Part shown: positions 3,432-55,375 of the stretch, piece by piece
Position numbering within the stretch: position 1 is the stretch's first letter
Layout of the letters: every line of letters starts with the position of its first letter
Assembly: GCA_040757295.1 (NCBI GenBank)
Contig: JBFLXH010000007.1
Location: 35,142-99,141, forward strand
DNA from: Bacillota bacterium
Lineage (GTDB): Bacteria > Bacillota > PH28-bin88
Direction: 5' to 3'
Length of the DNA: 64,000 nucleotides
Program-made: the position numbers and the translations under genes
The notes under the pieces: generated by a model
Database searches by the model: none
Told to the model about the DNA's origin: nothing
Seen by the model: the letters and a program-made list of their open reading frames with translations, nothing else

Positions 3432-4481
3432 TTGAAACTTTCCATCAAAGAAATGTGCAGTCTGGAGGCAGTGGTCAACCTTAAGATAGAATCTGACAGG
3501 CCTTTTTTTTCTGCCACTCATGAAGAAATAGCTAACGGTTCAACAACGGACATTTATTTTATTAGAACCTATGAGATTTTAGAAAACCTGCAGCTAAATG
3601 ATACTGAAGTTACTGCTGAGGTGTTCCCAAGGGGTTCTGGGGTAATGGCCGGTTTGCCTGAAGTGCTCAACTTATTAGCCAACAGAGGGTTGGAGATTTG
3701 GGCCCTTCCTGAGGGTGAAGATTTTTCGCCAAAAGAAGTTGTTTTGCGCATCAGAGGTCCTTATAATCGGTTTGGTTTGTTTGAGACTACTTTGCTTGGT
3801 ATTCTGGCCAGTTCCAGCGGGTGGGCCTCTGCCGCCAAAGCAGCAAAGCTGGCTGCAGGTGATAGGCCTGTCTACTGTTTTGGAGCTCGTCATGTGCATC
3901 CGGCGGTCGCCCCGGCGATGGAGCGGGCTGCCATTGTTGGTGGAGTTGATGGCGCAAGCTGTATTTTGGGTGCCAAGTTAGCAGGGAAGGAGCCTGTAGG
4001 TACGGTTCCTCATGCTGTTTTCCTAATCGCAGGTGACACCTTGAAAGTTGCCAAGACCTACCATGAAATCATGCCTCCTTCTGCCCGCAGGGTGATCCTA
4101 GTAGATACTTTTAAAGATGAGGCGGAGGAAGCTCTTAGGGTTGCTGAGGCTTTAGGACCAAATTTGCACGGGATAAGGCTGGATACCCCGAGTGAGAGAG
4201 GTGGAGTGACCCCTGATTTGGTAAGGGAAGTCCGCTGGAGGTTGAACTTAGCCGGGATGAGCCATGTTAAGATATTTGTATCCGGCGGCTTAACTCCTGA
4301 AAAGATTGTTCTGCTGAAACAGGCCGGGGCGGATGCCTTTGGTGTTGGAAGCTATATCTCAGGAGCAGCTCCTATTGATATGACTATGGATATTAAAGAG
4401 ATAAACGGCCAGCCTATTGCCAAGAGAGGCCGCCTTCCGGGGAGAACAGAGAGCCTGCGGCTGAAAGAGTATAAAGTTTAA
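3432..4481 (+). CDS. pncB: nicotinate phosphoribosyltransferase (NAPRTase family, short type)
   Basis: NAPRTase-like blocks (FGLFETTLLGIL, VDTF, GIRLDTP, SGGL) over ~350 aa. The start may instead be the ATG at 3453. Confidence 0.7.
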   Translation: MKLSIKEMCSLEAVVNLKIESDRPFFSATHEEIANGSTTDIYFIRTYEILENLQLNDTEVTAEVFPRGSGVMAGLPEVLNLLANRGLEIWALPEGEDFSPKEVVLRIRGPYNRFGLFETTLLGILASSSGWASAAKAAKLAAGDRPVYCFGARHVHPAVAPAMERAAIVGGVDGASCILGAKLAGKEPVGTVPHAVFLIAGDTLKVAKTYHEIMPPSARRVILVDTFKDEAEEALRVAEALGPNLHGIRLDTPSERGGVTPDLVREVRWRLNLAGMSHVKIFVSGGLTPEKIVLLKQAGADAFGVGSYISGAAPIDMTMDIKEINGQPIAKRGRLPGRTESLRLKEYKV

Positions 4482-14115: not shown

Positions 14116-14200
14116 GCGGAAGTGGCGGAACCGGCAGACGCGTACGTTTGAGGGGCGTATGGGAAATCCCGTGGGGGTTCAAGTCCCCCCTTCCGCACCA
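14116..14200 (+). tRNA. tRNA-Leu (anticodon GAG), type II with long variable arm, encoded CCA
   Basis: Hand-folded. Acceptor GCGGAAG/CTTCCGC; anticodon stem TACGT/GCGTA with loop TTGAGGG; variable arm GGGAAATCCC; T-arm GGGGG-TTCAAGT-CCCCC; 3' ACCA. Confidence 0.75.
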
Positions 14201-16518: not shown

Positions 16519-16853
16519 GGGAATATCAAATATTTTAATATTCGGTCTCCGAGCTAATACCGCCTAACGGTTTTTCCTATGGGGTTTAAGCCTGAGCTCT
16601 TAGCTCACGGGGTACAATTACCGGAAACGGGTGTGCCTCCATTATTGGGAAGGAGATGCATTAGGTCGTTTATTATTTCGGCCCTGCTAATTCGTTCCTT
16701 AGCAGGGCCATTATTTATAAGCTGGGATGCAAAAATAAGGTTGTTTATCCTTTTATTAGGTTAGCTGCTTATTAGTACTGGGAGCGCCTTACTGCCTCAG
16801 CAAGTATATCCAAGTTATTAACAAAGCATCGTAGAAGCTTTGGGGGTGTTTTC

Positions 16854-31539: not shown

Positions 31540-31615
31540 GGGCGATTAGCTCAGCTGGGAGAGCACCTGCCTTACAAGCAGGGGGTCGGCAGTTCAAACC
31601 TGTCATCGCCCACCA
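31540..31615 (+). tRNA. tRNA-Val (TAC)
   Basis: Hand-folded cloverleaf; anticodon loop CTTACAA; CCA encoded. Confidence 0.85.
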
Positions 31616-31624
31616 AAAAAGTAC

Positions 31625-31701
31625 GGAGCTGTAGTGTAGCGGTCTAACATGCCGGCCTGTCACGCCGGAGATCGCGGGTTCGATTCCCGTCAGCTCCGCC
31701 A
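31625..31701 (+). tRNA. tRNA-Asp (GTC)
   Basis: Acceptor GGAGCTG/CAGCTCC; anticodon loop CTGTCAC; CCA encoded. Confidence 0.85.
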
Positions 31702-31705
31702 TTCT

Positions 31706-31781
<76 letters not shown>

Positions 31782-31784
31782 GTT

Positions 31785-31859
31785 GCGGAAGTAGCTCAGT
31801 GGTAGAGCATCGCCTTGCCAAGGCGAGGGTCGCGGGTTCGAATCCCGTCTTCCGCTCCA
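31785..31859 (+). tRNA. tRNA-Gly (GCC)
   Basis: Acceptor GCGGAAG/CTTCCGC; anticodon loop TTGCCAA; CCA encoded. Confidence 0.85.
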
Positions 31860-31941
31860 TTAAGTTTATACCGTGCAAGTAACGTAAATGATATTATGAA
31901 GCAACACTCGGCCTATGGCCTTTTTTGAGGCATTTTGTGTT

Positions 31942-32017
31942 GGTGCGGTGGCGAAGAGGCTAACGCCGCGGACTGCAAATCCGCTATTCGTGGGTTCAAA
32001 TCCCACCCGCACCTCCA
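31942..32017 (+). tRNA. tRNA-Cys (GCA)
   Basis: Acceptor GGTGCGG/CCGCACC; anticodon loop CTGCAAA; CCA encoded. Confidence 0.85.
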
Positions 32018-32031
32018 AAAAAGAATGAAAA

Positions 32032-32057
32032 GGACTGCCCAAAAGGCGGTCCGTTTT
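32032..32057 (+). terminator. terminator after tRNA-Cys
   Basis: GGACTGCC-CAAAA-GGCGGTCC hairpin followed by GTTTT. Confidence 0.55.
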
Positions 32058-32081
32058 ACTGCAAAAATATAGAGTGATTGG

Positions 32082-32110
32082 TTGCTAATTACAAAGCAGC
32101 GTGATATAAT
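32082..32110 (+). promoter_or_regulatory. sigma-A promoter (extended -10) for tRNA-Leu(TAA)
   Basis: TTGCTA, 17-nt spacer, TGaTATAAT. Confidence 0.6.
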
Positions 32111-32153
32111 TATTTTTGCCTTCGTTAATTACTATAATTACTATTTAAAATGT

Positions 32154-32241
32154 GCCGGAGTGGCGGAATAGGCAGACGCAAGGGACTTAAAATCCCTCGG
32201 GCCACAAGCCCGTACCGGTTCGAGTCCGGTTTCCGGCACCA
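32154..32241 (+). tRNA. tRNA-Leu (TAA), type II
   Basis: Acceptor GCCGGAG/TTCCGGC (G-U); anticodon loop CTTAAAA; long variable arm; CCA encoded. Confidence 0.8.
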
Positions 32242-44850: not shown

Positions 44851-45291
44851 ATGCCATATATTGAGGTTACTAAAGGTATTGATGCCACACCGGAAATTGT
44901 TTATGACCTGGCAAAAGATATGGAATCCTACCCCAAGTTCATGGAAAGCGTGGAAAAGGTGGAAACCCTCGAACGTGGCGACGGTTATACGATAACCAAG
45001 TGGCATACAAAGCTGCAAGGGCGTCCGGTAGTATGGACTGAGAGAGACGTGTTTGATGATGTTGCCAAGAGAATTGACTATTCTCTGGTTCAGGGAGATC
45101 TAAAAAAATTTGAAGGGGCATGGACTTTTCAGCCCCATGGAGACGGAACGCAGGTTAAGCTTACAGTCGATTTTGAGTTGGGAATACCCATGTTTGCAGC
45201 ATTATTAAATCCTATTGCTGTAATGACAGTAAGACAAAACTGTGAAAGCATGCTGGAAGCCATGAAAAAGCAGCTAGAACAAAATAAATAG
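44851..45291 (+). CDS. SRPBCC (START/polyketide-cyclase-like) domain protein
   Basis: 146 aa; SRPBCC-like beta-grip pattern (YPKFMESVEKVETLE...). Confidence 0.7.
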   Translation: MPYIEVTKGIDATPEIVYDLAKDMESYPKFMESVEKVETLERGDGYTITKWHTKLQGRPVVWTERDVFDDVAKRIDYSLVQGDLKKFEGAWTFQPHGDGTQVKLTVDFELGIPMFAALLNPIAVMTVRQNCESMLEAMKKQLEQNK

Positions 45292-45383
45292 TAAAATAAA
45301 AGGGGTGCCGTCAAGGCGCCCTTTCATATTATCTTCTTTTGTGGACAAAATAAGAGATAGAGCAAAACGCCGGGGGGCCTTTT

Positions 45384-45626
45384 ATGGGAGAAATAACAAT
45401 CTACACTGCTCCTGCTTGACCACTTTGCGCGAAAGTGAAAGAGTATCTTTCAAAGAAGGGTTTGTGCTTCCAGGAAATAGATGTGGTAATAAACTTAGAA
45501 GCTCGGGAACAGATGGTTGCCAAAACAGGAATAATGGCTGTTCCAGCAGTAGACTTGGCCGGGGAGATGGTAGTTGGTTTTAATCGCCACAGGCTTGATC
45601 AATTAATATTTAGGATGATGGAATAA
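45384..45626 (+). CDS. glutaredoxin/NrdH-like redoxin with in-frame TGA at the redox-active position (candidate selenoprotein, U-P-L-C motif)
   Basis: RBS GGGGGG then ATG 45384. Codon 12 is TGA (45417-45419), which lies where the first Cys of CxxC would be (IYTAPA-U-PLC...EIDV...GIMAVPAV...VVGF, a Grx/NrdH fold). Candidate SECIS hairpins lie just downstream. Confidence 0.6.
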
Positions 45627-45681: not shown

Positions 45682-45888
45682 ATGCCAAACCTGACTCAAG
45701 CGGAACTAATGCAGTTAAGGGAAGACATAAGTGCTGAAATGCTAATGATTCAAAAATTTGCTGCTTATGCAAACATGTGTAATGACCAACAGGTGAAACA
45801 GGTCATAACCAATGTGCAGCGCACGCACGAAAGACACAGGGACATTTTAATGCGCCATCTAATGGCAGCCGGTCAAGGAATGATGTAG
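45682..45888 (+). CDS. Coat F domain protein (spore coat protein F-like), short
   Basis: AELMQLREDISAEMLMIQKFAAYANMC resembles the Coat_F domain; 68 aa. Confidence 0.55.
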   Translation: MPNLTQAELMQLREDISAEMLMIQKFAAYANMCNDQQVKQVITNVQRTHERHRDILMRHLMAAGQGMM

Positions 45889-45911: not shown

Positions 45912-46382
45912 GTGACCCACCATATGGAGCATGCGGGACAAGGAGTCCAAATGCATCAGATGCAGACGGCCGGTGGTGCCAATCTGCTCACTGATAAAAA
46001 CATTTTAAGTGATTGCCTGGCTTCCCAAAAGTTTTTGGCAGCATGTTATAATCATGCTGTAACAGAAAGTGCTAATGAAAGTTTGCGGCGGGATTTCATG
46101 GGTATTTACCAGGAAGAGCAAAACAACCTAAAAGCCGTCTTTGATGTTATGACAAGGCAAGGCTGGTACAACCTGAATTATGCTAACCCTCAGGATATTG
46201 CTCAGGTTCAACATCAATTCCAGCAAGAGATGGCCCAAGGAGGACAGCCTCAAAACTTTACCGCCCAGCACCAATACCAAGCCAATGTACCGGCCCAACA
46301 GTTTAACCAATATGGGGTGCAAGCCGGACAATTTACTCCCCATCATCACCCCGGTTTTCAACAGCCTTACCGGAATTGGTAA
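45912..46382 (+). CDS. Coat F domain protein (spore coat protein F-like) with Q-rich tail
   Basis: NILSDCLASQKFLAACYNHAVTESANESLRRDF Coat_F core; own RBS AAGGAGG; 156 aa. Confidence 0.65.
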   Translation: MTHHMEHAGQGVQMHQMQTAGGANLLTDKNILSDCLASQKFLAACYNHAVTESANESLRRDFMGIYQEEQNNLKAVFDVMTRQGWYNLNYANPQDIAQVQHQFQQEMAQGGQPQNFTAQHQYQANVPAQQFNQYGVQAGQFTPHHHPGFQQPYRNW

Positions 46383-46429: not shown

Positions 46430-46645
46430 GGGGGGGGGGTAAGATGCACGAGAGCGTCACTATTGTCGCTGCAAATTGTCTTAAATATGAAGCCATTACC
46501 TCTGCTCAGGGTTATGGTTTTTCCCTTTTAAATCATTTGCCGTACATTCCCAGATGCGATAGTTGCGTTAATTGGCTTGCTGGGACCTGTAATGAGTATG
46601 TAATTAACCAGCGAAAAATACTAATAACTAGAGTTTATTCGAGTA

Positions 46646-46673
46646 TTGACTTTTCTTCTCACCGTATTATAAT
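46646..46673 (+). promoter_or_regulatory. sigma-A promoter of glnA
   Basis: TTGACT, 16-nt spacer, TATAAT. Confidence 0.65.
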
Positions 46674-46694
46674 AAAGGGGAAAGAATAATAATT

Positions 46695-48434: not shown

Positions 48435-49811
48435 ATGTCTAAAAAATGGATTAATCTTATGCGCACAGGTTTGTTAGGGGTGTTATTTTGGGTTCTTGCT
48501 GGGATTGCAGTGGCTGATACAGGGGACATAACTGCTGGGGAAATAGCTTTTGCGGTGGATACCCTTTGGACTCTTTTAGCAGGTTTTATGGTTTTTTTCA
48601 TGCATGCTGGATTTACCATGGTGGAAACCGGTTTTACTCGTGCAAAAAATGCAGTAAATATCATTATGAAAAATATTTTAACTATTTCCTCTGGAGTTAT
48701 TATTTTCTATGCTATTGGCTTTGCCATTGCCTTTGGGCCCTCGTTGGGCGGTTTTATAGGTACCAAGGGATTTGGCCTAATTGGTTTAGAAGGAGCAGAT
48801 TTTGGGGTGCCACTTACTGGCTTTTGGTTTTTCCAGGCAGTTTTCGCGGCTACAGCAGCTACGATTGTTTCCGGTGCTGTGGCTGAAAGAACCAAATTTA
48901 GTGCATATCTTTTATTCACTGTTATTATTACCTCGATAACTTATCCAGTGGTAGTGCATTGGGTATGGGGTGGGGGATGGCTGTCCGAACTTGGATTTGT
49001 TGACTTCGCAGGCTCAACGGTCGTTCATAGTGTTGGCGGGTGGTCTGCTCTGGTAGGCGCAGCTTTGGTTGGGGCAAGGATTGGTAAATATGGAACCAAG
49101 GGAGAGGTAAAAGCAATACCTGGCCATAACATACCTTTTGGCGCCCTGGGCGTGCTGATATTGTGGTTTGGCTGGTTCGGTTTTAATTGTGGTAGCACTT
49201 TGTCTGGGACAGATGAGGCCATTTCAAGCATAGCCGCGACAACAATTTTATCTGCCTCAGCGGCTACTGTTTCTGCCATGGCAATAACCTGGCTTAGGTA
49301 TGGGAAACCTGACATCAGTCTTACATTAAACGGTGCCTTGGGTGGGTTAGTAGGGATTACTGCTGGCGCTGCTTCGGTCACCCTCGGAGGCTCTTTACTG
49401 GTAGGGTTGTTTTCAGGGGCTTTGCTAGTATTGGCAGTAGAGTTTATTGATCAAAAACTAAAAATAGACGATCCCGTAGGGGCTATATCTGTTCATGGTG
49501 TGTGCGGCGCTTTTGGAACATTGGCAGTTGGGCTGTTTTCTTCAGAAGCCGGTTTATTTTACGGTGGTGGTACCAGCCTTTTGGCAATTCAGGCGGCTGG
49601 CGTTTTTGCCGTGGGTATTTGGGTAATTCTGATCAGCTTCTTAGCCTTTAAATTAATTGGCTGGGTAGTAGGGTTAAGGGTATCGCCAGAAGAGGAGATA
49701 GAGGGACTTGATGTGGGAGAACACGGTATTTCGGCTTATGGAAATTTGGCGGGCAAAACTGGCCATCCCATTGGAGAAGCTATTGTTGCAAATACCCCAA
49801 TCAGTATCTAA
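48435..49811 (+). CDS. amt: ammonium transporter (Amt family)
   Basis: 11-TM Amt/MEP signature blocks ([23 protein letters not shown]); 458 aa. Confidence 0.9.
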
Positions 49812-49830
49812 TAGGCGGAGGTGCTTTATA

Positions 49831-50169
49831 ATGAAAAAGATCGAGTGTATTTTTAGGCCTTCGAAACTTGAGCAGGTGAAGGAAGCCTTAAGTATGTATG
49901 GTATCAACGGAATGACTGTAACCCATGTCATTGGATGTGGCATACAGAAAGGTAAAACAGAGCTTTATCGCGGGAGTGAATACAGCCTTGATCTCCTGCC
50001 TAAAGTAAAGATAGAGATAATAATCAAAGACGAATTAGTTAGACAGGTAATTGACATTATTTCTTCTGCGGCAAAGACAGGTCAAATAGGTGATGGGAAA
50101 ATATTTGTGTATGATGTAGAAACAGCTATTCGCATTCGAACGGGAGAAACAGGCGATGATGCCATCTAA
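49831..50169 (+). CDS. glnK: nitrogen regulatory protein P-II
   Basis: 112 aa; [13 protein letters not shown]...[23 protein letters not shown] signatures. ATG 49831 with RBS GGAGGTG (the ORF track start at 49708 is an upstream artefact). Confidence 0.9.
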
Positions 50170-50215
50170 TCGTAAGGAAGACTCTTTGCCATAATAAAAA
50201 TTTCCCATAGACAAA

Positions 50216-50253
50216 AAACGGGCGCACTGGCAATCAGGCGCCCGTTTTTTTTT
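50216..50253 (+). terminator. rho-independent terminator after glnK
   Basis: AACGGGCGC...GCGCCCGTT hairpin followed by TTTTTTTTTG. Confidence 0.8.
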
Positions 50254-50388
50254 GTTGTTTCTGGATAGAATACAAAGAACAAAGTTGTTATTAAGAGAAT
50301 TAACGTAAATTTTATATTTTGGCTTTCCTGGCACAACTATAAATTTAACAATTTGCTGTTATTGTGGTAGTCAAAGGGGGTTTTTTCA

Positions 50389-51096
50389 ATGCATACAGCT
50401 GATGCCCAGAGTCTTTGTTTGTCGTTGAAGTGGGCAGGTATTAAAAAAATAATATTTTCAACCCCTCTTTTTGGCGATGATTGCGAGCAGGAAAATACCC
50501 ATATTTTCTGTAATCATCAAGCGCTTCAAATATTGGCAAATGACGGTTATGAAGGACCTACAAGCCAACTGAAAAAATATTTAATCCAATTAGACAAAGG
50601 AGTACAATGGGCAGATAGAGGAAAAGGAAGTATTAATCACCACTATAATCCAAGTTCTGGTAAAGGGCTGTGGCACTGGGCATCTGCTGCGGCTACCTGT
50701 GCCTTTTTTTACTCAAAAGCCTTTGGGCTGTGGGAAAGAGGATTTTTTGAACAAGCAATGTTTTTTTTAGGAGCCAGTACTCATTTGATACAGGATGTGT
50801 GCGCGCCCCACCATGCCCGCTGCCAAGTTCTAGACGGGCACCAGCGTTTCGAACGTTGGGTAAGCAACAGGGTTCATAGTTTTAGGGTTTTTAGGAATGG
50901 TATTTACCAGTTAAAAAGGCCGCCAGAGGAATGGATATCTATAAATGCCACGGAGGGCTATCAGGGATACTCTCTTGTCAGACTAGGCAACAGTAGCAAG
51001 GACTACCACCAAGCGGCATCTCATTTGCTCGCATTGGCACAGAGAAGCACTGCGGGTTTTTGGCTGTCATTTCTCGAAAAAGCCAGAATAATCTAG
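50389..51096 (+). CDS. zinc-dependent phospholipase C family protein (no signal peptide)
   Basis: Zn_dep_PLPC-like motifs (WHWASAA, HLIQDVCAPHH); 235 aa; cytoplasmic by sequence. Confidence 0.6.
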   Translation: MHTADAQSLCLSLKWAGIKKIIFSTPLFGDDCEQENTHIFCNHQALQILANDGYEGPTSQLKKYLIQLDKGVQWADRGKGSINHHYNPSSGKGLWHWASAAATCAFFYSKAFGLWERGFFEQAMFFLGASTHLIQDVCAPHHARCQVLDGHQRFERWVSNRVHSFRVFRNGIYQLKRPPEEWISINATEGYQGYSLVRLGNSSKDYHQAASHLLALAQRSTAGFWLSFLEKARII

Positions 51097-53859: not shown

Positions 53860-54133
53860 GAGCTTTGCAAAATATTGGCTGAAACAGTCAATCCATCAGA
53901 TCGCTGAGTTTCCTTTTCTTAAAAAGGAAAGCGGGGGACCTAATTTTTTGGGGCTAATCCGGCGAAAATTGGCCATAAAATGGCCAAAATTGCGCTGGAC
54001 GGGTGAATCCTCTTCGATCCGAGCCCGTCAACTAACCTCGTAAGCGTGGGAGAAGGAGGTGGATTGGGTTTAGCAGCAGCATTGCTTGTCGATGTTGTTT
54101 TGCTGCTTTTCCCACCCAAGGAGATGCCTCCTT
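53860..54133 (+). promoter_or_regulatory. structured ~270-nt leader ending in an intrinsic terminator (54103-54133), immediately upstream of ODH-family/B12-domain operon; candidate riboswitch or attenuator of unknown class
   Basis: Hairpins TTTCCTTTT-CTTA-AAAAGGAAA, TTGGCCAT-AAA-ATGGCCAA and GACGGG..CCCGTC. Then CCCAAGGAG-ATGC-CTCCTTGGG plus TTATTTTTT, 25 nt before the ORF. Confidence 0.5.
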
Positions 54134-54157: not shown

Positions 54158-55375
54158 ATGGGTGCAAGCATGGAAGAAAAGGAGGGATGTAGGGTGAAAA
54201 ATCAACGGAAACAAAAGCCTGGTGAGCGCAGAGTCAATTTATTTCCGTTAGGTTCCCATCACTCGTTTCCGCGCTTCAGCATTATCGGTGCAGGTAACGG
54301 GGGTATGGCCATGGCAGGGCATTTGGCTTTGGCTGGTTTTCCCGTTAAGCTGTTTAATCGGAATCCGGCTAAACTAGCGGGGGTAATTCATGAGGGAGGT
54401 ATTCGTTTAAAAGGCCAGATTGAAGGTTTTGCTCATATTCCCAAAGTTACGAGCGATCCACGGGAGGCTGTCGCAGATGCAGATGTTTTGATGGTTGTTG
54501 TGCCTGCTTCCGGTCACAGAGTAATAGCAAAAATCCTTGCACCTTATCTAAAGGACGGCCAGATTGTAGTCTTGAACCCCGGGCGTACTCTGGGGGCGTT
54601 GGAGTTTGAGCACATAATTGTCGAAGCAGGATGCCAGGCCAGCGTAGTTGTCGCCGAGGCACAAAGCCTCTTGTATGCCAGTAGGATAACCAATGCGGCG
54701 GAGGTTACTATTTTTGGGATAAAAAATACGGTACCTGTTGCGGCTATACCAGCCTGGCAAACTGAGCGGGTCACCAAAATCCTGAATTTGGCCTTTCCTC
54801 AGTTTATACAGGCTGCCCATGTGCTTCAAACCAGTTTGGACAACGTTGGCGCTGTACTGCATCCCGCCCCGACTATTTTAAATATGGCCAGAATTGAGTC
54901 GGGTGAAACCTTTGAGTATTACCATCAAGGAATTACACCGAGGATTGCTCGGATTGTTGAACAACTGGATCAGGAACGATTATCCATTGCTAAGGCATTA
55001 GGCTTGGAGACAATGAGCACCAAAGAGTGGTTGGAAAAAGCCTATGGAGCAACAGGAGAAGATTTGTACGAGGCAATCCTAAACAATGTTGGTTACAGCG
55101 GGATACTAGCTCCTAGCAGCATGCCAACCAGGTATATTACGGAGGATGTGCCAACTGGTCTTGTGCCTTTGGCAGCCCTTGGCGAATTGACCGGTGTTGC
55201 CACGCCTACTATAAACAGCCTAATCAATATGGCTTCTTTTGCTGAAGGTGCCGATTATTGGACAGAAGGCAGGAGTTTGCAAAACTTAGGGCTTGCCGGT
55301 AAAGGCCTGGAGGAAATCTTTGCATATATTCTGGAAGGGAGGGAAGGCCTATTTCCAAGAGTATCAAACGTCTAA
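54158..55375 (+). CDS. NAD(P)-dependent opine dehydrogenase family oxidoreductase (octopine/nopaline DH-like); start uncertain
   Basis: Rossmann IIGAGNGGMAMAGHLA plus a C-terminal ODH-type domain. Alternative GTG start at 54195 after AAGGAGGG. Confidence 0.65.
   Translation: MGASMEEKEGCRVKNQRKQKPGERRVNLFPLGSHHSFPRFSIIGAGNGGMAMAGHLALAGFPVKLFNRNPAKLAGVIHEGGIRLKGQIEGFAHIPKVTSDPREAVADADVLMVVVPASGHRVIAKILAPYLKDGQIVVLNPGRTLGALEFEHIIVEAGCQASVVVAEAQSLLYASRITNAAEVTIFGIKNTVPVAAIPAWQTERVTKILNLAFPQFIQAAHVLQTSLDNVGAVLHPAPTILNMARIESGETFEYYHQGITPRIARIVEQLDQERLSIAKALGLETMSTKEWLEKAYGATGEDLYEAILNNVGYSGILAPSSMPTRYITEDVPTGLVPLAALGELTGVATPTINSLINMASFAEGADYWTEGRSLQNLGLAGKGLEEIFAYILEGREGLFPRVSNV

What the first reader, a model, noticed from the sequence alone, without database searches (positions are those of the whole stretch)
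45384..45626. Glutaredoxin/NrdH-like ORF with in-frame TGA exactly at the CxxC nucleophile position: candidate selenocysteine redoxin (U-P-L-C)
A good RBS and ATG (45384) open a reading frame that hits TGA at codon 12 (45417-45419) and then continues in the same frame for another 69 codons. Those codons encode an unmistakable Grx/NrdH thioredoxin-fold protein (KEYLSKKGLCFQEIDV ... TGIMAVPAV ... VVGFNR). The TGA sits where the first Cys of the CxxC redox motif belongs (IYTAPA-[TGA]-PLC). This placement is typical of Sec-for-Cys selenoproteins rather than a random nonsense mutation. Two small hairpins follow immediately (CACTTT-GCGCG-AAAGTG at 45421-45437; GAAAGA-GTA-TCTTTC at 45437-45451) and could be a bacterial SECIS. 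The six-frame track splits the gene into two meaningless ORFs, so automated annotation would likely miss or truncate it. Grx-like selenoproteins are known from Clostridia and Deltaproteobacteria. This instance sits next to spore-coat (CotF-like) genes, which suggests a spore-associated redox role.
Basis: partly seen in the sequence, partly recalled or inferred. Interest (0 to 1): 0.7.

Follow-up and report, generated by a model that had tools for sequence, protein, structure and literature searches.

The report
Unannotated selenocysteine glutaredoxin-like gene
A small redox-protein gene that gene finders cut in two at an internal TGA is almost certainly a real selenoprotein, with selenocysteine as the reactive residue; it is a new example of an already known kind, not a new kind.

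Summary
ATG 45384 opens a frame that meets TGA at 45417-45419 and runs on to TAA 45624-45626, giving an 80-residue glutaredoxin-fold protein with U-P-L-C where relatives have C-P-x-C.

Evidence for selenocysteine:
- The same TGA, in the same column, occurs in the syntenic ortholog of a related genome (PH28_bin88) and in seven further distinct metagenomic homologs.
- A 7-bp hairpin (45436-45452, loop GUA, 23 nt after the UGA) matches the published bacterial SECIS consensus.
- An equivalent hairpin is present in 9/9 TGA forms but only 5/67 Cys forms.
- Under 1% of synonymous recodings of the window gene form it.
- TGA is an ordinary stop for 8 of 52 window genes.
- The closest solved structure is Clostridium oremlandii Grx1, a native selenoprotein with Sec at the equivalent residue.

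NCBI assigned no protein to this gene in two MAG assemblies.

A sister lineage has deleted the gene.

This is a new member of a known selenoprotein family, of modest interest.

The parts
45300..45324 (+). Terminator-like hairpin ending the upstream SRPBCC gene. It marks the 5' boundary of the Grx transcription unit.
   Evidence: 10-bp stem with 6 GC pairs, followed by a T-rich tail. No sigma-70-type promoter was found between it and the ATG.
45372..45377 (+). G-run serving as a Shine-Dalgarno-like site, 6 nt upstream of the ATG.
   Evidence: Read directly from the sequence. The function is inferred.
45384..45626 (+). Full coding sequence of the 80-aa glutaredoxin-like selenoprotein (11 codons, UGA, 68 codons, TAA).
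   Evidence: Pfam PF00462 E=1.4e-14 spanning the TGA; best NCBIfam hit is TIGR02196 GlrX_YruB. PDB 7c10 at E=4e-14.
45417..45419 (+). In-frame UGA read as selenocysteine (U12), the attacking residue of the U-P-L-C motif.
   Evidence: It aligns with the first Cys of CxxC in 67 homologs and with TGA in 8 other distinct loci. It also aligns with residue 13 of C. oremlandii Grx1, which is natively Sec (PMC7642778).
45426..45428 (+). TGC codon for Cys15, the resolving cysteine of the UxxC motif.
   Evidence: The column holds Cys in every full-length homolog aligned.
45436..45452 (+). SECIS-like hairpin: 7-bp stem UGAAAGA/UCUUUCA with apical loop GUA (45443-45445), 23 nt after the UGA.
   Evidence: -5.2 kcal/mol, z=-2.45. 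An equivalent hairpin occurs in 9/9 TGA forms against 5/67 Cys forms. Covariation is seen in 4 of 7 pairs. Under 1% of synonymous recodings form it. It meets the loop, G and spacing criteria of the bSECIS model (PMC13188914).
45421..45437 (+). First small hairpin (CACUUU-GCGCG-AAAGUG). Probably incidental and not part of the SECIS core.
   Evidence: -5.5 kcal/mol. It is not conserved in the other TGA forms. Its loop starts 7 nt after the UGA, outside the 16-37 nt range.
45682..45888 (+). Downstream 68-aa gene, same strand, 55 nt after the Grx stop. NCBI names it a spore coat protein; it is weakly DUF3231-like.
   Evidence: It is syntenic in L086.
45912..46382 (+). CotF-family spore coat protein gene. 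It probably lies in the same transcription unit as the Grx gene.
   Evidence: Pfam Coat_F E=7e-19. One search gives the NCBI name. It is syntenic in L086. Co-transcription is inferred from gene spacing and from the terminator-like hairpin after 46382 (sequence shown).
46444..46689 (+). Small Cys-rich ORF (PRCDSCVNW..GTC) of unknown family. It is present where the Sec-Grx is present and absent where it is absent.
   Evidence: 56% identity to the L086 ORF; no family hit; absent from L093-L095. Whether it belongs to the same functional unit is speculative.

Best explanation
Window 45384-45626 encodes an 80-residue glutaredoxin-fold thiol/selenol-disulfide oxidoreductase with a U12-P-L-C15 active site.

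Recoding step. During translation the UGA at 45417 is not read as stop. The hairpin 45436-45452 (GUA loop, 23 nt downstream) acts as a bacterial SECIS. It would recruit SelB-GTP-Sec-tRNA(Sec) to the ribosome, so that selenocysteine is inserted.

Catalytic cycle. The selenolate of U12 attacks a disulfide or sulfenic acid on a substrate protein. Cys15 resolves the mixed selenenylsulfide, leaving an intramolecular Se-S bond. An external reductant then reduces that bond.

Reductant. I think a thioredoxin-reductase-like flavoprotein is the more likely reductant. The neighbourhoods of homologs and the YruB/Cp9 precedent point that way. Glutathione, as used in vitro by C. oremlandii Grx1, is the alternative.

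Shown: the continuous homologous reading frame; the Sec/Cys pairing; the TGA-specific hairpin; normal use of TGA as stop elsewhere in the window.

Inferred: that the organism has selA/B/C/D; that selenium is incorporated; the identity of the reductant and the substrates; co-transcription with the spore-coat genes.
For: 1. Frame and fold. Pfam Glutaredoxin E=1.4e-14 across the TGA. The score rises by 16.4 bits when the 12 N-terminal residues are included.

2. Sec/Cys pair. 67 distinct homologs have Cys at this column, and 9 distinct loci including the window have TGA. About 43 of 149 other top hits in the exhaustive protein search are ORFs that start just after the CxxC. Of four such hits looked up, three (P0015, P0007, P0065) have the TGA and one (P0009) is cut by a contig end.

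3. Orthology. In Clostridiales bacterium PH28_bin88 (GlnA 85% identical) the gene sits at the same place, between the aminotransferase and the coat genes and glnA. It has TGA at the same codon at 51% protein identity.

4. SECIS.
- A hairpin at +18 to +36 is present in 9/9 TGA forms against 5/67 Cys forms (Fisher p=1.4e-8, not corrected for phylogeny).
- The core MFE is -7.6 against -3.8 kcal/mol for GC-matched Cys forms (Mann-Whitney p=2e-4).
- The Glu codon at +8 is GAG in 7/7 TGA forms against 7/21 Cys forms. The Leu codon is CTT in 8/9 against 8/67.
- 4 of 7 pairs show changes on both sides, and 0 of 500 shuffles reach the observed covariation score.
- Under 1% of synonymous recodings of the window gene form the hairpin.
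- Loop size, G in the first loop position and the 23-nt spacing fit the published model.

5. TGA ends 8 of 52 window genes, so the genetic code is standard.

6. The closest solved structure, 7c10 (E=4e-14), is C. oremlandii Grx1. It is a native selenoprotein whose Sec aligns with the window's TGA (PMC7642778, PMC4479559).

7. An independent assembly is identical.

8. Clostridia that use Sec are on record. Moorella thermoacetica (GlnA about 76% identical to the window's) itself has a Grx selenoprotein (PMC1794560).
Against: - No tRNA-Sec, selA, selB or selD lies in the 64-kb window. The rest of the genome could not be reached.
- No other selenoprotein gene was found in the window.
- The window's hairpin is the weakest of the nine, at -5.2 kcal/mol. 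This is above the model's -7.5 kcal/mol limit unless the 60-nt fold (-13.0) is used, and that fold is no better than shuffles.
- Rfam has no matching SECIS family here.
- RNAalifold alone does not recover the hairpin, because its register shifts by 1-2 nt between lineages.
- One TGA form (L004) has a UUA loop with no G.
- The hairpin overlaps the conserved K-E-[YF]-L peptide, so coding and RNA constraints are entangled.
- The closest relatives (L093-L095) have deleted the gene, so it is dispensable.
Confidence: 0.85

Rival explanations
1. The gene is a pseudogene. A Cys codon (TGC or TGT) mutated to TGA, and the gene is decaying.
For: The gene is dispensable, because the sister lineage deleted it. 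NCBI gave it no protein accession. Sec machinery was not demonstrated.
Against: The same TGA at the same codon occurs in a syntenic ortholog at 51% protein identity and in 7 further distinct lineages. In all of them both flanks are intact and in frame. The N-terminal 11 codons remain homologous. A hairpin specific to TGA forms is maintained through disfavoured codons.
Confidence: 0.05
2. The UGA is read through without selenocysteine. For example, Trp or Cys is inserted by near-cognate suppression, or TGA has been reassigned.
For: Two database homologs (P0082, P0140) read T-W-P-Y-C at this column. Sec machinery has not been seen in this genome.
Against: TGA terminates 8 of 52 window genes whose Pfam coverage is full length. 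The W in those two database entries is best explained by a code-4 gene caller, which is my inference. The aligned column is Cys, the catalytic nucleophile, and Trp could not replace it. A SECIS-like hairpin accompanies the TGA.
Confidence: 0.05
3. Translation really stops at the UGA. The locus makes an 11-residue peptide and/or a 63-aa protein started at GTG 45435.
For: This is what mechanical ORF calling gives. Logan called a 47-aa fragment.
Against: The sequence directly before GTG 45435 (GCGCGAAA) has no Shine-Dalgarno-like element. A 63-aa product would lack strand beta-1 and the whole active site of the fold. Its Pfam score falls to 28 bits against 54 for the full product. The residues upstream of the TGA are conserved as I/V-x-V/I-Y/F-T-x-P-x in all TGA forms.
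Confidence: 0.03
4. The TGA is a sequencing or assembly error.
For: The source is a metagenome-assembled genome.
Against: An independent Logan assembly of SRR32167787 is 100% identical over 341 nt, including the TGA. Two NCBI MAGs share the flanking proteins exactly. Orthologs from other studies carry the TGA.
Confidence: 0.01

Closest known systems
Clostridium (Alkaliphilus) oremlandii OhILAs glutaredoxin 1 (cGrx1; PDB 7c10, 7c12, 7c13)
   Same: Both are small single-domain Grx-fold proteins. cGrx1 is a native selenoprotein with a U-P-x-C active site near the N-terminus (U13/C16, against U12/C15 here). The K-G-I-M-A-V-P and V-V-G-F motifs are shared. The alignment covers residues 3-75 at about 40% identity by my own count, E=4e-14 (PMC7642778, PMC4479559).
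   Different: cGrx1 is proposed to reduce the selenoprotein MsrA and to be recycled by glutathione. No msrA lies near the window gene, and neither reductant nor substrate is known here. The genomic context differs, since the window gene sits among spore-coat genes. Sequence identity is only moderate.
Bacterial glutaredoxin selenoprotein family (PF00462, UxxC), catalogued in Geobacter sulfurreducens, Alkaliphilus metalliredigens and Moorella thermoacetica
   Same: The Pfam domain is the same. Sec replaces the first Cys of CxxC, and a bSECIS lies directly downstream in the coding region (PMC1794560, PMC13188914).
   Different: This copy comes from an uncultured Bacillota MAG near Calderihabitans and PH28_bin88. 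It is unannotated. Direct orthology to the catalogued members was not tested.
YruB-family glutaredoxin-like proteins (NCBIfam TIGR02196). From my own knowledge, this family includes Clostridium pasteurianum Cp9, which is reduced by the thioredoxin-reductase-like Cp34.
   Same: It is the best-scoring NCBIfam model (79.2 bits, E=2.4e-22). Homologs in L089, L091 and L092 are directly followed by a gene of about 305 aa of the Pyr_redox_2 (TrxR-like) type, matching the Cp34/Cp9 arrangement.
   Different: The score is below the model's curated cut-off of 88.55 bits. The window has no adjacent TrxR-like or rubredoxin gene. The active site has Sec where the family has Cys.
NrdH-redoxin
   Same: Both are small Grx-fold redoxins, and NrdH is reduced by thioredoxin reductase rather than glutathione. 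There is weak similarity: TIGR02194 at 44.8 bits and PDB 1r7h at E=6e-11.
   Different: The score is far below the cut-off of 85.75 bits. From my own knowledge of that family, the C-V-Q-C and W-S-G-F-R-P motifs are absent here (U-P-L-C and V-V-G-F-N-R instead). No nrdI/E/F genes are nearby.
Uxx-star glutaredoxin-like selenoproteins (NCBIfam NF041212, NF041114, NF041211)
   Same: They are Grx-like and begin their active site with Sec. The hit is weak: NF041212 at 48.5 bits.
   Different: The score is below the cut-off of 66 bits. Those families are listed with other motifs (UxxT, GxGU; PMC13188914) and, by their name, end soon after the Sec motif. The window protein has a full UxxC motif and a complete fold.

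Membership tests
Bacterial Grx selenoprotein (PF00462, UxxC) | Glutaredoxin/thioredoxin-fold domain | tested here: met
   Pfam PF00462 at 54.4 bits, above the cut-off of 22.9, E=1.4e-14, covering profile positions 1-59 of 60. PDB Grx hits go down to E=4e-14.
Bacterial Grx selenoprotein (PF00462, UxxC) | In-frame UGA aligned with the catalytic first Cys of CxxC in Cys-containing homologs (Sec/Cys pair) | tested here: met
   67 Cys forms against 9 TGA forms at one column; the TGA aligns with residue 13 of cGrx1, which is natively Sec.
Bacterial Grx selenoprotein (PF00462, UxxC) | [quoted passage not shown] | tested here: met
   L086 is a syntenic ortholog. The others are L004, L023, L037, L030/L033, L031, L089/L090 and L091.
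Bacterial Grx selenoprotein (PF00462, UxxC) | bSECIS geometry: apical loop of 3-9 nt, upper stem of 4-16 bp, G in the first two loop positions, 16-37 nt between UGA and loop | tested here: met
   The loop is GUA (3 nt), the stem is 7 bp, G is in loop position 1 followed by U, and the spacing is 23 nt. The criteria come from PMC13188914.
Bacterial Grx selenoprotein (PF00462, UxxC) | bSECIS stability: MFE of -7.5 kcal/mol or lower | tested here: inconclusive
   The core hairpin alone folds at -5.2 kcal/mol. The 60-nt fold that contains it reaches -13.0 but is no better than shuffles. The other TGA forms range from -5.4 to -9.9.
Bacterial Grx selenoprotein (PF00462, UxxC) | Sec-decoding machinery (selA, selB, selC/tRNA-Sec, selD) in the same genome | not testable with these tools
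   None lies in the window or in the fetched loci. The source genome is absent from the searchable genome set. The rest of its 160,860-nt contig and the other contigs could not be fetched.
Bacterial Grx selenoprotein (PF00462, UxxC) | Selenium actually incorporated at the UGA | not testable with these tools
   This needs 75Se labelling or selenopeptide mass spectrometry.
YruB-family glutaredoxin-like protein (TIGR02196) | Score at or above the curated NCBIfam cut-off | tested here: not met
   79.2 bits against a cut-off of 88.55. It is nevertheless the best-scoring model.
YruB-family glutaredoxin-like protein (TIGR02196) | Partner thioredoxin-reductase-like flavoprotein encoded next to it | tested here: not met
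   None of the window ORFs scanned, including the immediate neighbours, hit Pyr_redox_2. Such a gene is adjacent in the homolog loci L089, L091 and L092.
NrdH-redoxin | NCBIfam TIGR02194 or NF007657 score at cut-off, and an nrdHIEF context | tested here: not met
   44.8 bits against 85.75, and 21.6 against 131. No ribonucleotide reductase genes lie nearby.
Uxx-star glutaredoxin-like selenoproteins (NF041212) | Score at or above the curated cut-off | tested here: not met
   48.5 bits against 66.

The most novel reading that the evidence does not exclude
The Sec-glutaredoxin may be a dedicated component of a sporulation or spore-coat module. On this reading it is transcribed with two coat-protein genes and works with the neighbouring unannotated CxxC mini-protein (46444-46689). 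A selenol would then drive disulfide exchange in coat assembly or germination. To my knowledge no spore-associated selenoprotein has been described.

What fits this reading:
- The order grx(U) - 68-aa coat gene - cotF - small Cys-rich ORF is conserved in two lineages that share only 51% Grx identity.
- Both the grx(U) gene and the Cys-rich ORF are missing from the sister lineage.

What does not fit:
- Other homologs sit next to thioredoxin-reductase-like genes instead.
- No sporulation promoter was identified.
- The co-loss is a single evolutionary event.
Probability: 0.15. Interest if true: 0.55.

Novelty: new member of a known kind. Interest (0 to 1): 0.3.

Why it matters
- Annotation. This is a clear case of a functional gene missed by routine annotation. 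Two NCBI MAG annotations skip it, and another pipeline reports a 47-residue stump.
- Selenium dependence. Adding the gene marks an uncultured spore-forming Bacillota lineage as a probable selenium user.
- A reusable signature. The family-wide comparison gives a simple way to find more members: TGA at the CxxC column plus a hairpin built on the V-K-E-[YF]-L-x codons, with a GU loop about 23 nt downstream. Roughly a quarter of the closest database hits look like similarly truncated selenoprotein genes.
- Biology. Glutaredoxin selenoproteins are already known and one is biochemically characterised, so the finding extends a catalogue rather than opening a new field. The spore-coat linkage is the only part that could lead somewhere new.

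Tried and rejected
1. Rfam, at gathering thresholds and at a permissive E-value on 45350-45560, gave no SECIS family. The only hit was a chance snoRNA match at E=4.6.

2. Folding the whole 62 nt after the TGA was no better than shuffles. Only the local hairpins stand out.

3. RNAalifold on nine TGA forms returned a trivial 4-bp structure, because the hairpin register shifts by 1-2 nt. I replaced it with per-sequence folds and explicit pair counting.

4. The first hairpin (45421-45437) was rejected as a SECIS. It is not conserved, and its loop is too close to the UGA.

5. The search for Sec machinery led nowhere:
- The window holds no tRNA-Sec.
- Motif scans for SelA, SelD and SelB over all 96 fetched sequences found nothing.
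- Pfam scans of 28 window ORFs found no sel genes.
- The source genome is not among the GTDB representatives.
- Contig look-ups returned only short Logan contigs.

6. A second selenoprotein gene in the window was looked for with two TGA-readthrough scans. Nothing credible turned up.

7. The first word-index protein search found only the 47-aa fragment. The exhaustive search was needed.

8. The first alignment was too diverse for the metagenome scan and was narrowed to four sequences.

9. Calderihabitans maritimus has no synteny upstream of glnA.

10. Literature searches for Calderihabitans plus selenocysteine, and for PH28_bin88, gave nothing usable.

11. I inspected the region upstream of the ATG by eye for sporulation sigma-factor promoters, in the window and in L086. 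I saw no convincing match, and no tool was available for this.

12. The third homologous-protein search was left unused. No query close enough to this MAG's SelA or SelB was available to make it informative.
Full report
**Observation**

A run of six G (45372-45377) lies 6 nt before ATG 45384. The frame reaches TGA at 45417-45419 (codon 12). It then continues for 68 sense codons to TAA at 45624-45626.

The conceptual product is 80 residues, not 81: MGEITIYTAPA-U-PLCAKVKEYLSKKGLCFQEIDVVINLEAREQMVAKTGIMAVPAVDLAGEMVVGFNRHRLDQLIFRMME. Mechanical ORF calling yields only a 63-aa GTG-started fragment and an out-of-frame 92-aa ORF.

Both small hairpins are at the stated coordinates. Each folds at about -5 kcal/mol, with z about -2.5 against dinucleotide shuffles. 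The 62-nt stretch as a whole is no more stable than shuffles.

**The two halves form one gene**

With Cys substituted for the TGA, the product matches Pfam Glutaredoxin (PF00462) at E=1.4e-14 over residues 4-62, that is, across the TGA. Without the first 12 residues the score is 38.0 bits; with them it is 54.4 bits. The short stretch upstream of the TGA is therefore itself homologous to strand beta-1 and the start of the active site.

The best NCBIfam model is the YruB-type glutaredoxin-like family TIGR02196. Its score of 79.2 bits is below the curated cut-off of 88.55.

**TGA is a normal stop in this organism**

Of 52 well-supported genes in the window, 31 end in TAA, 13 in TAG and 8 in TGA. 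Those ending in TGA include pyruvate:ferredoxin oxidoreductase subunits and an HpaB-family protein with full-length Pfam coverage. A reassigned genetic code is therefore excluded. Any decoding of 45417-45419 must be site-specific.

**The TGA is not an error**

A Logan assembly of SRR32167787 is 100% identical over 341 nt around the gene, including the TGA. The flanking proteins are present unchanged in two NCBI MAG annotations.

**Comparative evidence for a Sec/Cys pair**

An exhaustive HMMER search with the 68 residues after the TGA found 578 relatives.
- Full-length hits carry T-P-T-C-P-[YW]-C at the aligned position.
- About 43 of the 149 other top hits are short ORFs that begin immediately after the CxxC. 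That is what a gene caller produces when it meets an in-frame TGA.
- I looked up the DNA for four of these. P0015 (L004) reads MSEIRVFTTPT-TGA-PHC. P0007 (L089/L090) reads VVLYTIPT-TGA-PFC. P0065 (L091) reads ITVYSTST-TGA-PWC. P0009 (L092) is a Cys form cut by a contig end.

A metagenome scan returned 80 loci.
- Most have Cys at this column.
- L023 and L037 (AIVYTTPT-TGA-PYC) and L030, L033 and L031 (IIVFTTPT-TGA-PYC) have TGA at the same column.

**The syntenic ortholog**

The window's glutamine synthetase is 100% identical to that of an NCBI 'MAG: Bacillota bacterium'. Its nearest named relatives are Clostridiales bacterium PH28_bin88 (85%) and Calderihabitans maritimus (82%).

In PH28_bin88 (GCA_000987045.1, locus L086) the gene order is aminotransferase, Grx-like gene, 67-aa coat protein, CotF, small Cys-rich ORF, glnA. 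The Grx-like gene reads KVVVYTTPT-TGA-PHCTRVKEFLSQKG... It is 51% identical to the window protein, with TGA at the same codon.

A nonsense mutation would not persist at one codon across that much divergence with both flanks intact.

**The SECIS**

The published bacterial SECIS consensus requires four things (PMC13188914):
- an apical loop of 3-9 nt on a stem of 4-16 bp;
- a G in the first two loop positions, usually followed by G or U;
- 16-37 nt between the UGA and the loop;
- an MFE of -7.5 kcal/mol or lower.

The second hairpin (45436-45452) has a 7-bp stem (UGAAAGA/UCUUUCA), a GUA loop and a 23-nt spacing, so it meets the first three.

Alone it folds at only -5.2 kcal/mol. The 60-nt fold that contains it reaches -13.0 but is unremarkable against shuffles. 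I score the energy criterion as inconclusive.

The comparative signal is much stronger.
- All nine distinct TGA forms have a hairpin of 6-8 bp at +18 to +36. Eight of the nine have GU in the loop; L004 has UUA.
- Only 5 of 67 Cys forms have such a hairpin (Fisher p=1.4e-8).
- The mean core MFE is -7.6 kcal/mol for TGA forms against -2.4 for all Cys forms and -3.8 for GC-matched Cys forms (Mann-Whitney p=2e-4).
- Codon choice differs. Glu at +8 is GAG in 7/7 TGA forms against 7/21 Cys forms. Leu at +10 is CTT in 8/9 against 8/67. In the window genome GAA and other Leu codons are preferred.
- Explicit pair counting gives 79% of cells paired. Four of seven pairs change on both sides, and 0 of 500 shuffles reach the observed covariation score.
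- For the window gene itself, only 44 of 5000 synonymous recodings form a comparable hairpin.

Caveats apply.
- The nine sequences are few and partly related, and the statistics are not phylogenetically corrected.
- The hairpin overlaps the conserved V-K-E-[YF]-L-x peptide.
- RNAalifold does not recover the hairpin, because the register shifts by 1-2 nt between lineages.
- Rfam has no matching model.

The first hairpin (45421-45437) is not conserved and lies too close to the UGA. I do not count it as part of the element.

**Closest known**

Glutaredoxin is an established bacterial selenoprotein family with a UxxC motif. It is catalogued in Geobacter sulfurreducens, Alkaliphilus metalliredigens and Moorella thermoacetica (PMC1794560; PMC13188914).

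The closest solved structure to the window protein is 7c10 (E=4e-14, residues 3-75; about 40% identity by my count). This is Clostridium oremlandii Grx1. It is a native selenoprotein with a U(C)-P-X-C site, and its catalytic selenocysteine was replaced by cysteine for crystallography (PMC7642778). Other work refers to the same substitution as U13C/C16S (PMC4479559). The window's position 12 aligns with residue 13 of that chain.

The window gene is therefore a homolog of a biochemically characterised selenoprotein, with Sec at the equivalent position.

**Mechanism**

Shown: a continuous homologous frame, the Sec/Cys pairing, a TGA-specific hairpin, and the standard genetic code.

Inferred:
- SelB-GTP-Sec-tRNA(Sec) is recruited by the hairpin, and Sec is inserted at codon 12.
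- The selenolate attacks a substrate disulfide or sulfenic acid.
- Cys15 resolves the mixed selenenylsulfide.
- The resulting Se-S bond is reduced externally.

For the reductant there are two leads. C. oremlandii Grx1 is described as glutathione-recycled (PMC7642778). In three unrelated homolog loci (L089, L091, L092), however, the gene is directly followed by a Pyr_redox_2 protein of about 305 aa, the size and family of thioredoxin reductase. From my own knowledge, this recalls the C. pasteurianum Cp34/Cp9 pair, Cp9 being the founding YruB protein. I favour a flavoprotein reductant but did not test it. None of the window ORFs I scanned is of that type.

**Context**

A terminator-like hairpin (45300-45324) closes the upstream SRPBCC gene. 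The Grx gene is followed on the same strand by a 68-aa gene and a CotF-family gene. NCBI names both 'spore coat protein'.

Next come a further hairpin, a small Cys-rich ORF (46444-46689) and the glnA promoter. No sigma-70-type promoter precedes the Grx gene. I could not assess sporulation sigma factors.

The linkage to coat genes is conserved in PH28_bin88 but not in more distant homologs. The spore-role idea therefore remains a hypothesis.

**Loss in the sister lineage**

Proteins in the same 90% GlnA cluster come from GCA_018333865.1 ('Syntrophomonadaceae bacterium', L093) and from JGI metagenomes (L094, L095).
- In these loci the SRPBCC gene is followed after 69 nt by the 68-aa coat gene. 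Window 45298-45600 is missing.
- The junction lies at an imperfect repeat (AAATAAATAG / TTAATATTTAG).
- The last 14 nt of the Grx gene (GGATAATGGAATAA) survive downstream of the junction.
- Because the more distant PH28_bin88 has the gene at this position, this is a deletion, that is, a selenoprotein loss.
- The small Cys-rich ORF is missing from the same loci.

**Annotation status**

NCBI protein accessions run MEW6661536 (SRPBCC)...537 (68-aa coat)...538 (CotF)...539 (GlnA). In a second MAG they run MFZ5689089 down to ...086. Neither series has an entry for the Grx gene or the small ORF. The only database product from this gene is a 47-aa Logan fragment.

**What remains open**

I could not examine the rest of the genome for selA, selB, selC and selD.
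- The window has no tRNA-Sec and no sel genes.
- The source genome is not among the searchable representatives.
- Only short Logan contigs were retrievable.
- No other selenoprotein gene is present in the window.

Indirectly, the TGA-specific hairpin and the intact frame argue for active decoding. Moorella thermoacetica, a moderately related Clostridia species, is a documented Sec user with its own Grx selenoprotein (PMC1794560).

**Verdict**

This is a genuine but unannotated selenocysteine glutaredoxin-like gene, and a new member of a known selenoprotein family.

- Confidence that it encodes Sec: about 0.85.
- Interest: modest (0.3). A specialist would not be surprised, and selenoproteome pipelines find such genes routinely.
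- Mildly new elements: the conserved linkage to spore-coat genes, the co-loss with an uncharacterised CxxC mini-ORF, and a simple family-wide SECIS signature.

Noticed in passing
window 46444-46689 (+); L086 5572-5808: An 81-aa Cys-rich ORF (…AQGYG.S.LN.LP..PRCD.CVNW..GTC…) lies between cotF and glnA and is not annotated. It is 56% identical over 50 aa in PH28_bin88 and hits no Pfam or NCBIfam family. It is absent from exactly those relatives (L093-L095) that also lack the Sec-Grx. Its 3' end overlaps the glnA promoter.
   Followed up: partly
window 45298-45600 versus L093 2950-2969, L094, L095: The sister lineage (GlnA at least 90% identical) has a clean 303-bp deletion that removes the terminator, the 5' region and most of the Sec-Grx gene. 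The junction is at a short imperfect repeat, and the last 14 nt of the Grx gene remain.
   Followed up: yes
L089 2785-3702; L091 3142-4056; L092 226-1155: In three unrelated metagenomic loci the Grx-like gene (two TGA forms and one Cys form) is directly followed by a Pyr_redox_2 gene of about 305 aa, resembling thioredoxin reductase. This suggests the usual reductant for this subfamily.
   Followed up: partly
L030 and L031 around 4001-4340; L023 around 855-1360: Some TGA-form homologs are fusions. L030 and L031 carry a C-terminal CxxC...CxxC zinc-ribbon-like tail (113 aa in total). L023 carries a C-terminal extension of about 90 aa that looks PDZ-like (169 aa in total).
   Followed up: no
P0082 and P0140 (representative search hits): Two database proteins read T-W-P-Y-C at the Sec column. 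Most likely a gene caller using genetic code 4 translated a TGA as Trp, which would hide further selenoprotein genes.
   Followed up: no
window 16535-16671 (+) and 53892-54061 (+): There is a Moco/tungsten-cofactor riboswitch (63 bits) upstream of a molybdenum-cofactor biosynthesis cluster (MoeA-like, MoaA). There is also a c-di-AMP (ydaO) riboswitch (76 bits) upstream of the ORF at 54158-55375.
   Followed up: no
window 31540-32241 (+) and 14116-14200 (+): A cluster of six tRNA genes (Val, Asp, Phe, Gly, Cys, Leu) plus a separate tRNA-Leu. None is tRNA-Sec.
   Followed up: yes
window 48435-50389 versus L093 5305-5522: The ammonium transporter gene and the stretch after it (48435-50389) follow glnA in the window. 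They are absent from the sister-lineage loci, where glnA is followed directly by the Zn-dependent phospholipase C-like gene.
   Followed up: no
L086 1635-4447: In PH28_bin88 the class-III aminotransferase is part of an ORF of about 900 aa. A short stretch just downstream (about 4378-4447) translates to a remnant resembling the C-terminus of the window's SRPBCC protein. This suggests that gene was lost or rearranged there.
   Followed up: no
window 44851-45291 (+): NCBI names the upstream SRPBCC/polyketide-cyclase-fold protein a 'type II toxin-antitoxin system RatA family toxin'. Its NCBIfam score is only 37.6 bits against a cut-off of 258, so the name is probably over-specific.
   Followed up: partly
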